A model generated the notes under the pieces. That model was given only the letters and a program-made list of their open reading frames with translations, was not told the origin of the DNA and did not search any database. A stretch of DNA of 64,000 bases from Escherichia phage JLBYU50, in the sequence record OK272470.1; one strand, written 5' to 3'. Of this stretch, positions 53,752 to 56,931 are shown in pieces. Positions within the stretch are counted from its first letter, which is position 1; every line of letters begins with the position of its first letter. Made by a program: the position numbers and the translations under genes.

Positions 53752-54183
53752 TTAATCAGTGAAAATTACGCTTACATCTTCTTTAGAAAAGAGTTTATGA
53801 TCTTCACCTTTTGTCTCAAGAGTTTCATACAGGTTAAGAAGTTCTGAAACATCTTTCTCTACCAGTTTCTTCAATGTTGCAATTTTCTGTTTGCGATTCT
53901 TAATACGTTCAGCTACAACCTTACGTTGGTATCCAGCAGTACGATAACCTGAGAAAGTTACACCAGTGAGACTTGCAGTTACAGGATCGTAATGACGTTC
54001 AATCTGAAATTTATTAAAAGGTACAGCGTCATCACGAATAATCTTCCCGCCATTACTTACTTGACGAAGACCAGTAACTTGTTCTAGTCGTGCCATAGAA
54101 ATCTTTGGAGACAGACCAGAGTCTAGGTTCATACCATTGTTAATCAGTGCTTTCAGGGTGATTTTGCTGTTCAGTGTACTCAT
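53752..54183 (-). CDS. hypothetical protein (143 aa)
   Basis: ORF track; 5' end overlaps the methyltransferase gene by 44 nt, so the true start may be the internal Met (MNLDSGL). Confidence 0.4.
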   Translation of the reverse strand: MSTLNSKITLKALINNGMNLDSGLSPKISMARLEQVTGLRQVSNGGKIIRDDAVPFNKFQIERHYDPVTASLTGVTFSGYRTAGYQRKVVAERIKNRKQKIATLKKLVEKDVSELLNLYETLETKGEDHKLFSKEDVSVIFTD

Positions 54184-54871
54184 TTAGTCGTTCCTCCGCT
54201 TGCTTAAAAATATTTACATCGGCTTCACAGCCTAAGTATTCTCTACCTGTTAAAAGTGCCGCAACTTGTGTTGTTGCACTTCCAGAGAAGAAGTCTAAGA
54301 CTACATCTCCTTCGTTGGTGTGTATATTAATAAGGTCACAAAACAAAGTCAAGTGTTTTTGTGTTGGATGAAAACGATCTGCTCCTTGATAGATAGGATA
54401 CTCAAACACACCCTTATGGTAGGAAGCATTGAAGGTTGGCTTAGAACCTTTAACACAAACAATAGCCATTTCTTTAGCGTTACTAAGGTAGTTAACACCA
54501 CTGTTGATGGGTACAGGGTTTGTTTTAATCCATTCAATAGTACGGAACATACGAAAACCAAGCGGTTCAAGGATTTCACGTAGCTCCTGGATCTTCCAGA
54601 TATCATACCAAACTATGCAAGTACCACCTTTTCTAAGCACCCTGTAGGCTTCTTTGAATACTTCTTTAAAGTAAGGAATATCTACAACATCCCAATCACC
54701 AAAGTTGTAAGATACACGGAATCTATCCGTATCTTTTCCAGTAGGCTCTCCAGATTGAAAATTTGTGTCACGAGAAATAGCATATGGTGGGTCAGTAAGA
54801 ATCAAATCTACACTATTGCTTTCGAGGGTTTGCAGGTAGTTTAATGCGGTGTTGTTTACAAATTCGCTCAT
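54140..54871 (-). CDS. DNA N6-adenine (amino) methyltransferase, beta-class
   Basis: catalytic DPPY (LILTDPPYAI) near N-terminus, HPTQKHL block, SAM-binding FFSGSATT near C-terminus; motif order IV before I. Confidence 0.75.
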   Translation of the reverse strand: MSEFVNNTALNYLQTLESNSVDLILTDPPYAISRDTNFQSGEPTGKDTDRFRVSYNFGDWDVVDIPYFKEVFKEAYRVLRKGGTCIVWYDIWKIQELREILEPLGFRMFRTIEWIKTNPVPINSGVNYLSNAKEMAIVCVKGSKPTFNASYHKGVFEYPIYQGADRFHPTQKHLTLFCDLINIHTNEGDVVLDFFSGSATTQVAALLTGREYLGCEADVNIFKQAEERLNEYTEQQNHPESTD

Positions 54872-54879
54872 TATATCTC

Positions 54880-54910
54880 CTTCAAAGAAAAGGAGCCGTT
54901 AGGCTCCTTA
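54880..54910 (-). terminator. rho-independent terminator (minus strand)
   Basis: AAGGAGCC-GTTA-GGCTCCTT; on minus strand followed by TTTTCTTTGAA. Confidence 0.55.
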
Positions 54911-54931
54911 TATTCACACAATATTTAACTA

Positions 54932-55879
54932 TTAGAAACAGTGCAGGAAGTTTCGACCATACTGCAAACCAATAGGAGCAAATGGGATATCATCATCGAA
55001 ATCTTGAACAACAGGTTCTGGTTCTTTCGGTGCTGGCTCTTTCTTCTCTACTTTTTTAGTTTCTTTCTTAACTTCTTGTACTGGGGTAGACATTCCACGG
55101 ATAGCAGCAGCTACTTTATCAGACAAAGCAAGAACTTCACGAGCAGCTTCAATAATCTCTTCTGCCGTTACAGTTTTACCTGTATGATCACGACAAGCGT
55201 TAAGAATTGCGTGTCCAACTGAAGCACCAAGATCATAATCAGTCACATCAACGCCACGATCTTTAGCAATTTCTGCTTTCAGAGTAACAGTTGCAGATTG
55301 TACCACACCAGCCAAGTCGAAAGCATCACCTTTCACACCAGCACGTAGAAGCTCCAGAGCGCCGTTTACAGCGTGTCCTGTTTCAATCCCTACGGTATCA
55401 CGTTTTTTGTAGTTAGGCTTGCTACCTTCGTTATTAGATGGCTTATTTCCACCTTTTGAAGAAGATTGTGCTTGCTGAACACCTTCTGTTGAAAGAATAG
55501 TGATTTTACCTTTAGAGGAATTGTAGTATGTTTTGCCATTCCATTCAGAAGGTTTAACATCCATAGTTAGTTCTACACCTTTTTCGATAGTAACCCACTT
55601 GTCACCATCTTTAACTTGCAGGTTTTCATGTTCTGGATGCAGTTTAACTTCACCTAGGCTAACCCAAACACCTTTATCATCAGCACTAGCACCTTTCTCT
55701 TTAATAAGCAGAGATGCTTTGTGAGTTGATTCAATTTTCTTATCTGGCTGACCTGCAACCTTAATATAAGAGACTTTCATTTCATCAAACTTATCCAGTT
55801 TGACATATTCAACGATACCTTCAGCCCAGAATGCTTCTTTTTTAGTACGACGGTCGATTTCAGAATTAATTACTGGCAT
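54932..55879 (-). CDS. ssb: single-stranded DNA-binding protein with internal acidic DFDDDIPF motif
   Basis: OB-fold-like N-terminal half, Gly/Ser/Asn-rich linker, acidic DFDDDIPF identical to bacterial SSB C-terminal tip, followed by 15 extra residues. Confidence 0.65.
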   Translation of the reverse strand: MPVINSEIDRRTKKEAFWAEGIVEYVKLDKFDEMKVSYIKVAGQPDKKIESTHKASLLIKEKGASADDKGVWVSLGEVKLHPEHENLQVKDGDKWVTIEKGVELTMDVKPSEWNGKTYYNSSKGKITILSTEGVQQAQSSSKGGNKPSNNEGSKPNYKKRDTVGIETGHAVNGALELLRAGVKGDAFDLAGVVQSATVTLKAEIAKDRGVDVTDYDLGASVGHAILNACRDHTGKTVTAEEIIEAAREVLALSDKVAAAIRGMSTPVQEVKKETKKVEKKEPAPKEPEPVVQDFDDDIPFAPIGLQYGRNFLHCF

Positions 55880-56337: not shown

Positions 56338-56931
56338 TTAAATCTTAAATTCTTCGTTGTTAAATGAATCTAGTGTACGTACTTCTGGCTCTTTGGGAAT
56401 GAAAACGTCTTTTACAAAGCGGAACATAGGGAAACGTTCTGCCATTTTACGGACGTGTGCTTCTTTACCTGTGTATCGGTGATTAATAGTACAAATATTA
56501 GTTTTCAGTGCAAATTCAAAATCTGGATGATATACATAATTTTGACCATCCCAGTAACACAAGCAAATAGCTACATCAAAGTTCCATACGATTTCACTGC
56601 GTACACCTTCTTCCATGATCATAAAGTTAAACTTAAGATCTTTATAGTATGCTTCAAATACCCATTTCAAATGTGGTAGTTCGGCATAAGTGTGTTCTGT
56701 TTGCTTAGTAAGTTGTTTAACATTACGTGCACCAACACCCAACATCAAAAATTTCTCTACTAGTACGATTGTATTGTGGTTAGGCATACGCAAGTAAATA
56801 TCAATATCTTGCGCAGGTTTCTCTAATCGCCAATCACGTACAGCGCCGCCAGCTACAATTGCAAACGGATCTACCAGTTGGCACATACGTAACACTTCTA
56901 AAGCTCGTACTTTTTGATCTTCAATATTCAT
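56338..56931 (-). CDS. Pol-beta-superfamily nucleotidyltransferase (CCA-adding/poly(A) polymerase head-domain-like)
   Basis: IVAGGAVRDWRL followed by DIDIY: GGxVRD glycine loop plus DxD carboxylates typical of class II tRNA nucleotidyltransferase/PcnB heads; only 197 aa. Confidence 0.55.
   Translation of the reverse strand: MNIEDQKVRALEVLRMCQLVDPFAIVAGGAVRDWRLEKPAQDIDIYLRMPNHNTIVLVEKFLMLGVGARNVKQLTKQTEHTYAELPHLKWVFEAYYKDLKFNFMIMEEGVRSEIVWNFDVAICLCYWDGQNYVYHPDFEFALKTNICTINHRYTGKEAHVRKMAERFPMFRFVKDVFIPKEPEVRTLDSFNNEEFKI

What the first reader, a model, noticed from the sequence alone, without database searches (positions are those of the whole stretch)
54932..55003. SSB-like protein with the DFDDDIPF interaction motif placed internally, followed by a 15-aa extension
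Seen: the protein has an OB-like N-terminal half and a flexible Gly/Ser/Asn linker, then DFDDDIPF followed by APIGLQYGRNFLHCF before the stop. Established: in bacterial SSB the DDDIPF tip is the extreme C-terminus, and its free carboxylate helps recruit host replication and repair proteins. Inference: either the extension masks or regulates the tip, so the phage SSB could sequester or avoid host partners, or a point change has destroyed an ancestral stop codon.
Basis: partly seen in the sequence, partly recalled or inferred. Interest (0 to 1): 0.45.

Follow-up and report, generated by a model that had tools for sequence, protein, structure and literature searches.

The report
Mobile cap on phage SSB tail
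The 15 extra residues after the DDDIPF tip are a conserved peptide module found on single-strand-binding and primase/helicase proteins of phages and plasmids, not a sequencing error, and in related phages the module arrives together with a selfish HNH endonuclease gene that sits at DDIPF-encoding gene ends.

Summary
ORF 54932-55879 (-) encodes a 315-aa protein that ends DFDDDIPF + APIGLQYGRNFLHCF. The window is a phi92-like coliphage, and all 55 close relatives keep the extension.

It is not a lost stop codon. The same 14-17-aa tail (consensus F-AP[IV]GLQY-x-x-[HN]-x-[IL]-[HY]-[AC]-[ILMF]) ends 21 of 100 orthologues. It also ends canonical SSBs of lambdoid, Vibrio and other phages, prophages and IncN plasmids, and the primase/helicase of some Vequintavirinae.

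It is always C-terminal and constant in length. It is constrained in the SSB reading frame: pN/pS is about 0.5 there, against 0.9 or more in the other two frames.

In two sister-phage pairs (Mt1B1_P17/ukendt, KE23/KE22) the tail and an overlapping HNH endonuclease gene (phrog_2340) are present or absent together. In 80 of 80 metagenomic loci of that HNH subfamily, the gene lies 7-89 nt after the PF codons of sequence-unrelated SSB-like genes.

The window carries a tail without the HNH gene. The best reading is a selected, horizontally mobile C-terminal cap that makes the IPF tip internal. Its molecular partner is unknown.

The parts
54932..55879 (-). SSB-like gene (phi92 gp156 orthologue, phrog_4477), 315 aa
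   Evidence: ORF list. PHROG hit E 2.5e-101, no Pfam hit. 98-100% identical proteins in phi92-like phages.
55490..55879 (-). OB-fold domain, residues 1-130
55394..55489 (-). Disordered Ser/Gly/Asn/Lys linker, residues 131-162
   Evidence: pLDDT 46-71. Sequence.
55100..55393 (-).
   Evidence: AF2 helices 163-179, 186-208, 215-230 and 239-260 with pLDDT above 90. Invariant G168, G218, G222 and near-invariant H169, A170 in 57 homologues. The only fold matches are designed helical repeats.
55004..55099 (-). Disordered Lys/Glu/Pro-rich spacer, residues 261-292
   Evidence: pLDDT about 50-64. Sequence.
54980..55003 (-). DFDDDIPF, identical to the last 8 residues of E. coli SSB (SSB-Ct), here internal
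   Evidence: The identical stretch is found at the C-terminus of E. coli SSB chains 1eqq/4mz9.
54935..54979 (-). 15-aa extension APIGLQYGRNFLHCF (the 'cap'), then stop TAA at 54932-54934
   Evidence: The same module is in 231 phage records, 48 IMG/VR loci, 9 bacterial genomes and 99 plasmids. pN/pS favours the SSB frame.
54925..54960 (-). Short +2-frame ORF MVETSCTVSNS* whose ATG lies at the position used as HNH start codon in rV5 and probably Mt1B1_P17. No HNH gene follows here.
   Evidence: Compare Mt1B1_P17 MVETSCIASKVCFKCG... and the annotated rV5 start in CAATATGGC. No HNH Zn-finger motif anywhere in the window.
54880..54909 (-). Intrinsic-terminator-like hairpin AAGGAGCC-TAAC-GGCTCCTT + T-run, 22 nt after the stop. 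It is the conserved right-hand boundary of the locus in related genera.
   Evidence: The same hairpin follows the SSB stop in ukendt and L152, and follows the HNH gene in Mt1B1_P17, AV125, L150 and L153.
54140..54871 (-). Downstream DNA methyltransferase gene (context only, not part of the module)
   Evidence: Pfam N6_N4_Mtase, E 1.9e-30.

Best explanation
The extension is a real, translated, selectively maintained C-terminal peptide module. It caps the SSB-Ct tip (DDDIPF) of mobile-element ssDNA-binding and primase/helicase proteins.

It spreads horizontally. In several lineages it forms the 5' edge of a free-standing HNH endonuclease cassette (phrog_2340). That cassette sits immediately after the Pro-Phe codons of genes ending in the acidic ...[IVL]PF motif and replaces their stop codon. 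The HNH start codon lies inside the last codons of the tail.

The phi92-like lineage, and therefore this window, carries the tail without the HNH gene. Most likely the HNH gene was lost after a cassette invasion. Less likely, the lineage acquired only the tail by recombination.

Inferred, not shown: the cap turns the Phe-300 alpha-carboxylate into an internal peptide bond. It adds a second hydrophobic L-[QP]-[YF] element and a new hydrophobic C-terminus. This would change which partners the tail can dock to. It would weaken canonical host SSB-Ct pockets, which use the free carboxylate, and possibly favour another partner.
For: (1) Not an artefact. 55 of 55 phi92-like genomes have it.

(2) Portable module. 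Near-identical tails end phrog_4477 proteins at 36-100% identity (21 of 100). They also end canonical SSBs of HK75 and Vibrio phage phiV039C, the Seunavirus/Mydovirus primase/helicase, IncN plasmid and phage-plasmid SSBs, and prophage SSB fragments of E. coli, Salmonella, Proteus and Providencia.

(3) Peptide-level selection. The window and Mt1B1_P17 tails differ at 6 of 45 nt, all synonymous in the SSB frame. Over 53 unique tails, the part not fixed by the search pattern gives pN/pS 0.44-0.56 in the SSB frame, against 0.9-1.0 and 1.5-2.3 in the other frames, with pS about 0.8. Tail length is always 14-16 aa in the 57 pattern-found loci. The tail is always at the extreme C-terminus.

(4) Mobility together with the HNH gene. 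Mt1B1_P17 has tail + HNH where its sister ukendt has IPF-stop and the same terminator. KE23 has tail + HNH where KE22 (99.4% identical) ends ...DNDTPF-stop. There a replacement of about 500 nt starts in the Phe codon, with two flanking substitutions. L150, L153, L156 and rV5 also have tail + overlapping HNH.

(5) Target specificity of the HNH subfamily. In 80 of 80 IMG/VR loci the Zn-finger Cys codon lies 7-89 nt after the PF codons of an acidic-[IVL]PF gene end. The background is 3 of 135 window ORFs. The upstream genes belong to at least 5 unrelated PHROGs: gp2.5-like 112, SSB 44, SSB 9002, 862 and 2544.

(6) Decay intermediates. A truncated HNH follows the tail in L015, and tandem degenerate HNH genes follow it in L156.

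(7) The free Phe carboxylate is part of the canonical SSB-Ct contact (established knowledge). One search shows that solved structures contain only the uncapped tip.
Against: No HNH remnant can be recognised in the 22 nt between the tail stop and the terminator in the window. Loss of the HNH gene in the phi92 lineage is therefore an inference.

Most tails lack an adjacent HNH gene: about 42 of 48 viral loci, HK75, phiV039C and IncN plasmids. The tail may thus be older than, and independent of, the endonuclease.

The HNH gene also occurs next to untailed genes. AV125 is one case. Among the 77 regex-scored loci, 29 have no extension and 34 have one extra residue. The tail is therefore not needed for insertion.

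Within phrog_4477 the association is modest: the HNH gene is next to 5 of 10 tailed and 1 of 6 untailed genes sampled.

The 80 HNH loci are the ones most similar to a tail-associated query. Other members of the family sit next to other genes, such as 5'-3' exonuclease and DNA polymerase I.

AF2 gives the tail low confidence and no docking site. No binding, cleavage or homing experiment exists.
Confidence: 0.6

Rival explanations
1. Sequencing or assembly artefact, or a recent point mutation that destroyed the stop codon right after IPF in this genome.
For: 78 of 100 orthologues do stop directly after ...IPF.
Against: The identical extension is in 55 independently sequenced phi92-like genomes. 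The same motif occurs in unrelated proteins and elements. Length is constant, and synonymous-only differences separate the window from Mt1B1_P17. In untailed relatives the DNA after the stop (TGATCTTATTGATTT...) bears no resemblance to the tail codons, so read-through would not produce this peptide.
Confidence: 0.01
2. Neutral scar. The tail is only the translated 5' edge of an HNH cassette, tolerated but without function. Its conservation reflects recent spread or DNA-level needs of the endonuclease (start codon, ribosome binding, dual coding).
For: Tail and HNH gene are gained together in sister phages. The HNH start codon lies inside the tail. Other cassette types add 0 or 1 residue, so an extension is not needed for insertion.
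Against: Synonymous sites are saturated (pS about 0.8), while the SSB frame keeps pN/pS about 0.5 and the HNH frame does not. The strongly conserved APIGLQY half lies upstream of the HNH start in most cassettes. Tails without an HNH gene (most of them) keep full length and the motif in phages, prophages and plasmids. No truncated tails were seen among 57 loci found with a pattern that fixed only the first 7 residues.
Confidence: 0.12
3. The tail is an old functional feature of one class of mobile-element SSBs and owes nothing to the endonuclease. The HNH family simply homes to conserved 3' coding sequence, whether DDIPF-stop or the tail. The sister-phage indels are co-conversion of flanking sequence.
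For: Most tails have no HNH neighbour. Tails occur on conjugative IncN plasmids. Both Zn-finger types of the HNH occur with a tail (L150 and L153), and one also occurs without it (AV125).
Against: This differs from the best explanation only in which came first. In KE23 and Mt1B1_P17 the tail demonstrably arrived with the HNH gene. The same tail on three unrelated protein families needs some transfer vehicle.
Confidence: 0.22
4. The tail is a C-terminal degradation or processing signal. Its hydrophobic ...[HY]-[AC]-[ILMF] end resembles ssrA-like or MuA-like protease tags. It would be removed or would target the protein for turnover, regenerating or regulating the IPF tip.
For: Only sequence resemblance: endings such as ...SLYALA...IYAL and ...HAI recall ssrA ...YALAA and MuA ...KAI (own knowledge). 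The tail is always at the extreme C-terminus.
Against: No test was possible. The best-conserved part (APIGLQY) is not at the terminus. The endings vary (CM, CI, CF, AI, AL, VL).
Confidence: 0.05

Closest known systems
Bacterial SSB C-terminal tip (SSB-Ct, DDDIPF) as a protein-interaction hub
   Same: Identical octapeptide DFDDDIPF after a disordered spacer on an OB-fold ssDNA-binding protein.
   Different: The tip is internal, followed by 15 conserved residues. The protein has an extra four-helix domain and no Pfam SSB match. The capped form was found on phage, prophage and plasmid genes. In one genome per species it appeared in only 9 genomes, all SSB-sized genes in contexts that were not inspected.
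T7 gp2.5 and gp4 acidic C-terminal tails ending in Phe, which share a docking role on the T7 DNA polymerase (own knowledge; gp2.5 tail summarised in bioRxiv 10.64898/2026.02.22.705581)
   Same: One and the same C-terminal peptide is found on both the SSB-like protein and the primase/helicase of a phage group with a T7-like DNA polymerase (Vequintavirinae).
   Different: In T7 the terminal Phe is free and essential, whereas here it is capped. In the phi92-like window only the SSB-like protein carries the motif. The tail also occurs in lambdoid phages and plasmids, which encode no polymerase of their own.
Free-standing HNH homing endonuclease genes of large phages (T4 seg/mob genes; the many free-standing HNH genes of rV5-like and Certrevirus phages, PMC7344957)
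   Same: Sporadic presence among near-identical phages, insertion between conserved replication genes, flanking substitutions next to the insertion, and decayed copies.
   Different: The insertion point is the last sense codon of genes that share only a 5-residue motif. One cassette type extends the target protein in frame with a conserved, selected peptide. I found no description of this target or of the tail in the searchable literature. No HNH gene is present in the window itself.

Membership tests
Bacterial-type SSB (OB fold + disordered linker + acidic C-terminal tip) | OB-fold ssDNA-binding domain | tested here: met
Bacterial-type SSB (OB fold + disordered linker + acidic C-terminal tip) | Sequence membership in the SSB family (Pfam PF00436) | tested here: not met
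   No Pfam family at E<=1. The only strong hit is phrog_4477, of unknown function.
Bacterial-type SSB (OB fold + disordered linker + acidic C-terminal tip) | Acidic ...DDDIPF motif with the Phe as the last residue (free alpha-carboxylate) | tested here: not met
   The motif is present but followed by 15 residues. 78 of 100 orthologues do meet this feature.
Bacterial-type SSB (OB fold + disordered linker + acidic C-terminal tip) | Binding of host genome-maintenance proteins through the tip | not testable with these tools
   Needs peptide-binding or pull-down experiments.
phrog_4477 / phi92 gp156 family | Full-length profile match and conserved synteny (DNA polymerase, nucleotidyltransferase, 132-aa gene, then this gene) | tested here: met
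   E 2.5e-101. The same gene order is seen in phi92, Mt1B1_P17, ukendt, L150, L152 and L153.
Capped SSB-Ct tail module (defined here) | [IVT]PF followed by [AS]P[IV]GL[QPM][YF] and 7-9 further residues ending hydrophobic, at the extreme C-terminus | tested here: met
   The window tail APIGLQYGRNFLHCF fits the consensus of 53 unique tails. Profile matches that include the tail end at the protein C-terminus.
Free-standing HNH homing-endonuclease cassette (phrog_2340 subfamily) | HNH endonuclease gene present next to the target gene | tested here: not met
   No Zn-finger/HNH motif of this family anywhere in the window. Only 22 nt lie between the tail stop and the terminator. The window holds at most the 5' edge of such a cassette.
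Free-standing HNH homing-endonuclease cassette (phrog_2340 subfamily) | Presence/absence polymorphism between near-identical genomes at a fixed site | tested here: met
   Tested in related phages, not in the window: Mt1B1_P17 vs ukendt vs AV125, and KE23 vs KE22.
Free-standing HNH homing-endonuclease cassette (phrog_2340 subfamily) | Conserved nuclease motifs | tested here: met
   Invariant C..C, HH and further His/Cys columns in alignment A1. PHROG hits to endonuclease / endonuclease VII / HNH families.
Free-standing HNH homing-endonuclease cassette (phrog_2340 subfamily) | Site-specific cleavage of the gene-less allele and super-Mendelian inheritance | not testable with these tools
   Needs enzyme assays and mixed infections. 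Only the fixed insertion point (80 of 80 loci) and co-conversion-like flanking changes speak for it.
Group I intron carrying an HNH gene | Intron RNA structure around the endonuclease gene | tested here: not met
   No Rfam match at E<=0.1 in the window region or in four HNH-bearing loci.

The most novel reading that the evidence does not exclude
The capped tip is an adaptive, transferable protein-interaction switch of mobile elements. Burying the IPF carboxylate and adding the APIGLQY...hydrophobic peptide lets phage and plasmid SSBs (and some primase/helicases) coat their ssDNA without recruiting host SSB-Ct clients or sensors, or lets them recruit a different gamma-proteobacterial factor. 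A dedicated HNH homing endonuclease family that recognises DDIPF-encoding gene ends moves this switch between unrelated replication proteins.
Probability: 0.3. Interest if true: 0.8.

Novelty: new variant of a known kind. Interest (0 to 1): 0.62.

Why it matters
The SSB C-terminal tip is a central docking site in bacterial DNA replication and repair, and it is generally taken to need its free terminal Phe. A widespread, selected, mobile-element-specific cap on that tip would mean phages and plasmids routinely rewire or silence this hub. That bears on host takeover, recombineering with phage SSBs, defence systems that sense phage SSBs, and SSB-Ct-directed inhibitors.

Separately, an HNH endonuclease family sits immediately after the codons of a 5-residue motif shared by unrelated genes. 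That is an unusually clear case of a selfish element associated with a functional motif, and of such an element carrying an in-frame peptide into its host gene. Both claims can be tested directly with peptides, one phage mutant and one purified enzyme.

Tried and rejected
(1) Artefact or lost stop: rejected.

(2) The idea that the window keeps a recognisable HNH stub. Only the tail itself aligns with HNH-bearing alleles, and the 22-nt spacer shows no credible remnant. A 9-nt AGTTAAATA match to the L150 HNH 3' end is too short to count.

(3) Conservation caused by dual coding with the HNH N-terminus or by a DNA element: rejected by the frame-specific pN/pS.

(4) Group I intron: no Rfam hit.

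(5) Beta-clamp-binding motif (QL[SD]LF / QLxLxL) and PIP-box readings of GLQY...: the spacing of hydrophobic residues does not fit either, and it differs between the 14- and 15-aa tail types. These were dropped by inspection only.

(6) T4SS translocation signal, considered because IncN plasmid SSBs carry the tail: it cannot explain the phage cases.

(7) Intramolecular docking of the tail on the OB or helical domain: AF2 leaves residues 261-315 at pLDDT about 50-57.

(8) Literature searches for the peptide strings and for HNH/ssb associations found nothing relevant. The Sak4/HK620 paper concerns a different, uncapped tail, NDYPPF.

The 42-aa profile mainly returned short SSB fragments.

(10) PDB sequence search: only uncapped SSB-Ct.

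Full report
**What is in the window**

The minus-strand ORF 54932..55879 encodes 315 residues ending ...EPEPVVQ-DFDDDIPF-APIGLQYGRNFLHCF-stop. The finding's coordinates cover exactly the octapeptide (54980-55003), the 15-residue extension (54935-54979) and the stop (54932-54934).

The window is a phi92-like coliphage (Justusliebigvirus). A 1.9-kb stretch around the gene matches 55 phage records at 95-99% identity, and the gene is phi92 gp156.

Pfam finds nothing. PHROGs places the protein in phrog_4477, of unknown function.

An AlphaFold2 model built from 57 homologues gives the following layout:
- a confident beta domain, residues 1-130;
- a disordered Ser/Gly/Asn/Lys linker, 131-162;
- a confident four-helix domain, 163-260;
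- a disordered C-terminal 55 residues that include the motif and the extension.

**Not an artefact and not a lost stop**

All phi92-like genomes keep the identical extension. Of 100 homologues from a 5.8-billion-protein search:
- 78 end exactly at ...[IV]PF;
- 1 has one extra residue;
- 21 carry a 14-17-residue extension with the same pattern, F-[AS]-P-[IVL]-G-L-[QPM]-Y-x-x-[HN]-x-[IL]-[HY]-[AC]-[ILFV], down to 36% overall identity.

In untailed relatives, the DNA after the stop is unrelated to the tail codons. Simple read-through therefore cannot create this peptide.

**The tail is a portable module**

A tblastn search with the 23 C-terminal residues finds 231 phage records. Reading some of them shows the same tail on several kinds of protein:
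- canonical OB-fold SSBs: HK75 ends ...DDDIPFAPVTLPFPRHAIHAI, and Vibrio phage phiV039C ends ...DDDIPFAPVGLQYGRNLLHVI;
- the primase/helicase of Seunavirus and Mydovirus phages...DDDTPFAPIGLQYANHAIYVL.

A degenerate DNA pattern for PFAP[IV]GLQY finds 48 IMG/VR loci, mostly 150-245-aa SSBs. In one genome per species of 185,579 species it finds only 12 hits. Nine are genuine SSB tails; eight come from gamma-proteobacteria and one from a MAG labelled Parasphingorhabdus.

Ninety-nine plasmids carry the tail, including IncN conjugative plasmids and a non-mobilizable Salmonella plasmid with phage-type genes. Many prophage SSB fragments of E. coli, Salmonella, Proteus and Providencia have it too.

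A profile search of 1.84 billion cluster representatives places every tail match at the very C-terminus. No solved structure contains the capped form, and literature searches for the peptide found nothing.

**The peptide itself is under selection**

The window and Mt1B1_P17 tails differ at 6 of 45 nucleotides, all synonymous in the SSB frame.

I pooled all pairs of 53 unique tail sequences and looked at the part not fixed by the search pattern. It gives pN/pS 0.44-0.56 in the SSB frame, with saturated synonymous sites (pS about 0.8). The two other frames give 0.9-1.0 and 1.5-2.3.

This pooling ignores phylogeny and is descriptive only. It still rules out conservation at the DNA level, or through the overlapping endonuclease frame, as the main cause.

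Tail length is 14-16 residues in all 57 pattern-found loci, although the pattern constrained only the first seven residues.

**Link to an HNH endonuclease**

In the genus Phapecoctavirus there are three alleles:
- Mt1B1_P17 has the phi92-type tail followed by an overlapping 164-aa HNH gene;
- its sister ukendt has IPF-TGA and then the same terminator hairpin;
- AV125 has an untailed gene followed by an HNH gene with a different N-terminal zinc finger but a nearly identical nuclease half.

In Seunavirus, KE22 and KE23 are 99.4% identical over the primase/helicase C-terminus. KE22 ends ...DNDTPF-TGA. KE23 has ...DDDTPF, a 45-nt tail and an HNH gene: a replacement of about 500 nt that starts in the Phe codon, with two substitutions just upstream.

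Metagenomic orthologues L150, L153 and L156, and phage rV5, also have a tail plus an overlapping HNH gene. L015 and L156 show truncated or frameshifted copies. The protein is phrog_2340 ('endonuclease') with invariant Cys/His motifs. No intron RNA is detected.

**The HNH subfamily sits at DDIPF-encoding gene ends**

Searching IMG/VR with the HNH alignment gave at least 573 relatives. In the best 80 loci, the ORF ending next to the HNH start ends in an acidic ...[IVLTAC]PF motif in all 80: 77 by regular expression and 3 by eye. Three of 135 window ORFs do so by chance.

The first zinc-finger Cys codon lies 7-89 nt after the PF codons, and sequences diverge right after the Phe codon. Among the 77 loci scored by regular expression, the junctions fall into these classes:
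- no extension: 29;
- one extra residue (IPFN/S/R/D, often with a TATAAT-like spacer): 34;
- short extensions of 2-9 residues: 3;
- long tails of 10 or more residues: 11.

Ten upstream genes sampled fall into at least five unrelated PHROGs, including gp2.5-like and canonical SSBs. The only shared feature is the motif.

One caveat applies. These 80 loci are the closest relatives of a tail-associated query. Other family members in cultured phages sit next to other genes.

**What this means for the window**

The window has the tail but no HNH gene. Homology with HNH-bearing alleles runs through the tail to its stop (63 of 71 nt with Mt1B1_P17) and resumes at the terminator hairpin. The 22 nt in between are uninformative.

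The Mt1B1_P17 tail is far more similar to the phi92 tail than the rest of the two proteins are to each other (61% identity). A cassette with a phi92-type tail has therefore moved between the two genera.

Within phrog_4477, an HNH gene neighbours 5 of 10 tailed and 1 of 6 untailed genes examined.

I consider it more likely than not (about 0.55) that the phi92 lineage once carried the HNH gene and lost it. The alternative is that tails are older and the endonuclease merely targets them and drags them along by co-conversion. That remains open. Most tails (about 42 of 48 viral loci, HK75, IncN plasmids) have no HNH neighbour.

**Mechanism: shown and inferred**

Shown:
- the tail is translated sequence under peptide-level constraint;
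- it is always C-terminal;
- it occurs on phage, prophage and plasmid genes of gamma-proteobacterial hosts;
- it is transferable between unrelated proteins;
- in several cases it was gained together with an HNH gene.

Inferred from established SSB biology: the tip's Phe carboxylate is part of the contact with ExoI, chi, RecQ, PriA and others. The cap should therefore weaken those contacts. The tail adds a second Leu-x-Tyr/Phe element seven residues later and a new hydrophobic terminus, which could serve another partner.

In Vequintavirinae the same tail sits on both the SSB-like protein and the primase/helicase. This recalls the shared acidic tails of T7 gp2.5 and gp4. Lambdoid phages and plasmids with the tail encode no polymerase, which argues for a host-side partner or for simple silencing. 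None of this could be tested with the tools available.

**Verdict**

- Observation: confirmed.

What is there is a new variant of known things: an SSB-Ct tip carrying a conserved, mobile cap, associated with a free-standing HNH endonuclease family that sits at the motif's codons. I found no prior description in the searchable literature. That is absence of evidence only.

Confidence by claim:
- the feature is real and conserved: above 0.95;
- peptide-level selection: about 0.85;
- HNH subfamily specific for DDIPF-type gene ends: about 0.85;
- the tail is mobilised with it: about 0.8;
- the window's tail is a relic of such a cassette: about 0.55;
- the cap alters partner binding: about 0.4.

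Noticed in passing
window 55100-55393 (-), residues 163-260 of the SSB-like protein: A confidently predicted, conserved four-helix domain lies between the OB fold and the acidic tail (invariant G168, G218, G222; near-invariant H169, A170). The only fold matches are designed helical repeats. Its role (oligomerisation?) is unknown.
   Followed up: partly
L005 518-2572, L155 1-1665, L006 981-2069 (Seunavirus / Mydovirus primase/helicase): The primase/helicase of PVP-SE1-like phages natively ends in an SSB-Ct-like ...D[DN]DTPF. The replicative helicase therefore carries the same tip as the SSB, as in T7 gp4/gp2.5.
   Followed up: partly
L163 439-972 (IncN plasmid pKPC-SMH ssb); 99 plasmid records: SSBs of IncN conjugative plasmids end ...DFEDDIPFAPVTLPFPNHAIHAL. 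The capped tail is thus not phage-specific: 69 of the 99 plasmids matched are typed conjugative, though only two plasmid SSBs were read, and no HNH gene follows in the two plasmids read.
   Followed up: partly
L148 707-1138 (AV125) vs L002 3905-4399 (Mt1B1_P17): The two Phapecoctavirus HNH genes are chimeric relative to each other. The nuclease halves are nearly identical, while the N-terminal zinc fingers differ (CSCCGAEKPLNMF... vs KVCFKCGVLKPLTEF...). This suggests domain swapping of the presumed DNA-recognition part.
   Followed up: no
L078, L085, L086, L091, L102, L105, L110, L117, L119, L126, L133 junctions: Many environmental cassettes share the junction CCTTTTAATTAGAAC-GG-TCTATAATGG. 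The single extra Asn codon and the stop lie inside a conserved promoter-like element (TATAAT) upstream of the HNH gene.
   Followed up: no
L156 1914-2560: Behind a tailed SSB-like gene lie a truncated HNH gene and then a second, frameshifted HNH-like remnant. These look like tandem decayed copies.
   Followed up: partly
phage records MG065639, MG065656 and others: Records named 'Campylobacter phage' are 98-99% identical to E. coli phi92-like or rV5-like phages over this locus. They are probably mislabelled or come from contaminated preparations.
   Followed up: no
L006 981-2069 (OY978796.1, Klebsiella phage K45PH128C2): The gene labelled 'ribonucleoside diphosphate reductase small subunit' has the C-terminus of the primase/helicase. 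The record's product names appear shifted.
   Followed up: no
window 54140-54871 (-); L017, L019, L027, L034, L043, L044 downstream genes: A DNA methyltransferase gene directly follows the tailed SSB gene both in the window (N6_N4_Mtase) and in several Vibrio-like viral contigs (proteins starting MFEQFNGQKFNLIYADPAW...). Whether these are related, or whether this is an accessory-gene hotspot, was not examined.
   Followed up: no
window 56338-56931 (-): The nucleotidyltransferase-like gene two genes upstream gets only a weak Pfam PolyA_pol hit (below cut-off). Its metagenomic orthologues carry precomputed PF26128 (Gad2) hits.
   Followed up: no
window 54880-54909 (-) and the equivalent sites in L002, L003, L148, L150, L152, L153: The terminator hairpin AAGGAGCC-NNNN-GGCTCCTT is conserved across Justusliebigvirus, Phapecoctavirus and metagenomic relatives. 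It marks the right-hand edge of every tail/HNH variant.
   Followed up: partly
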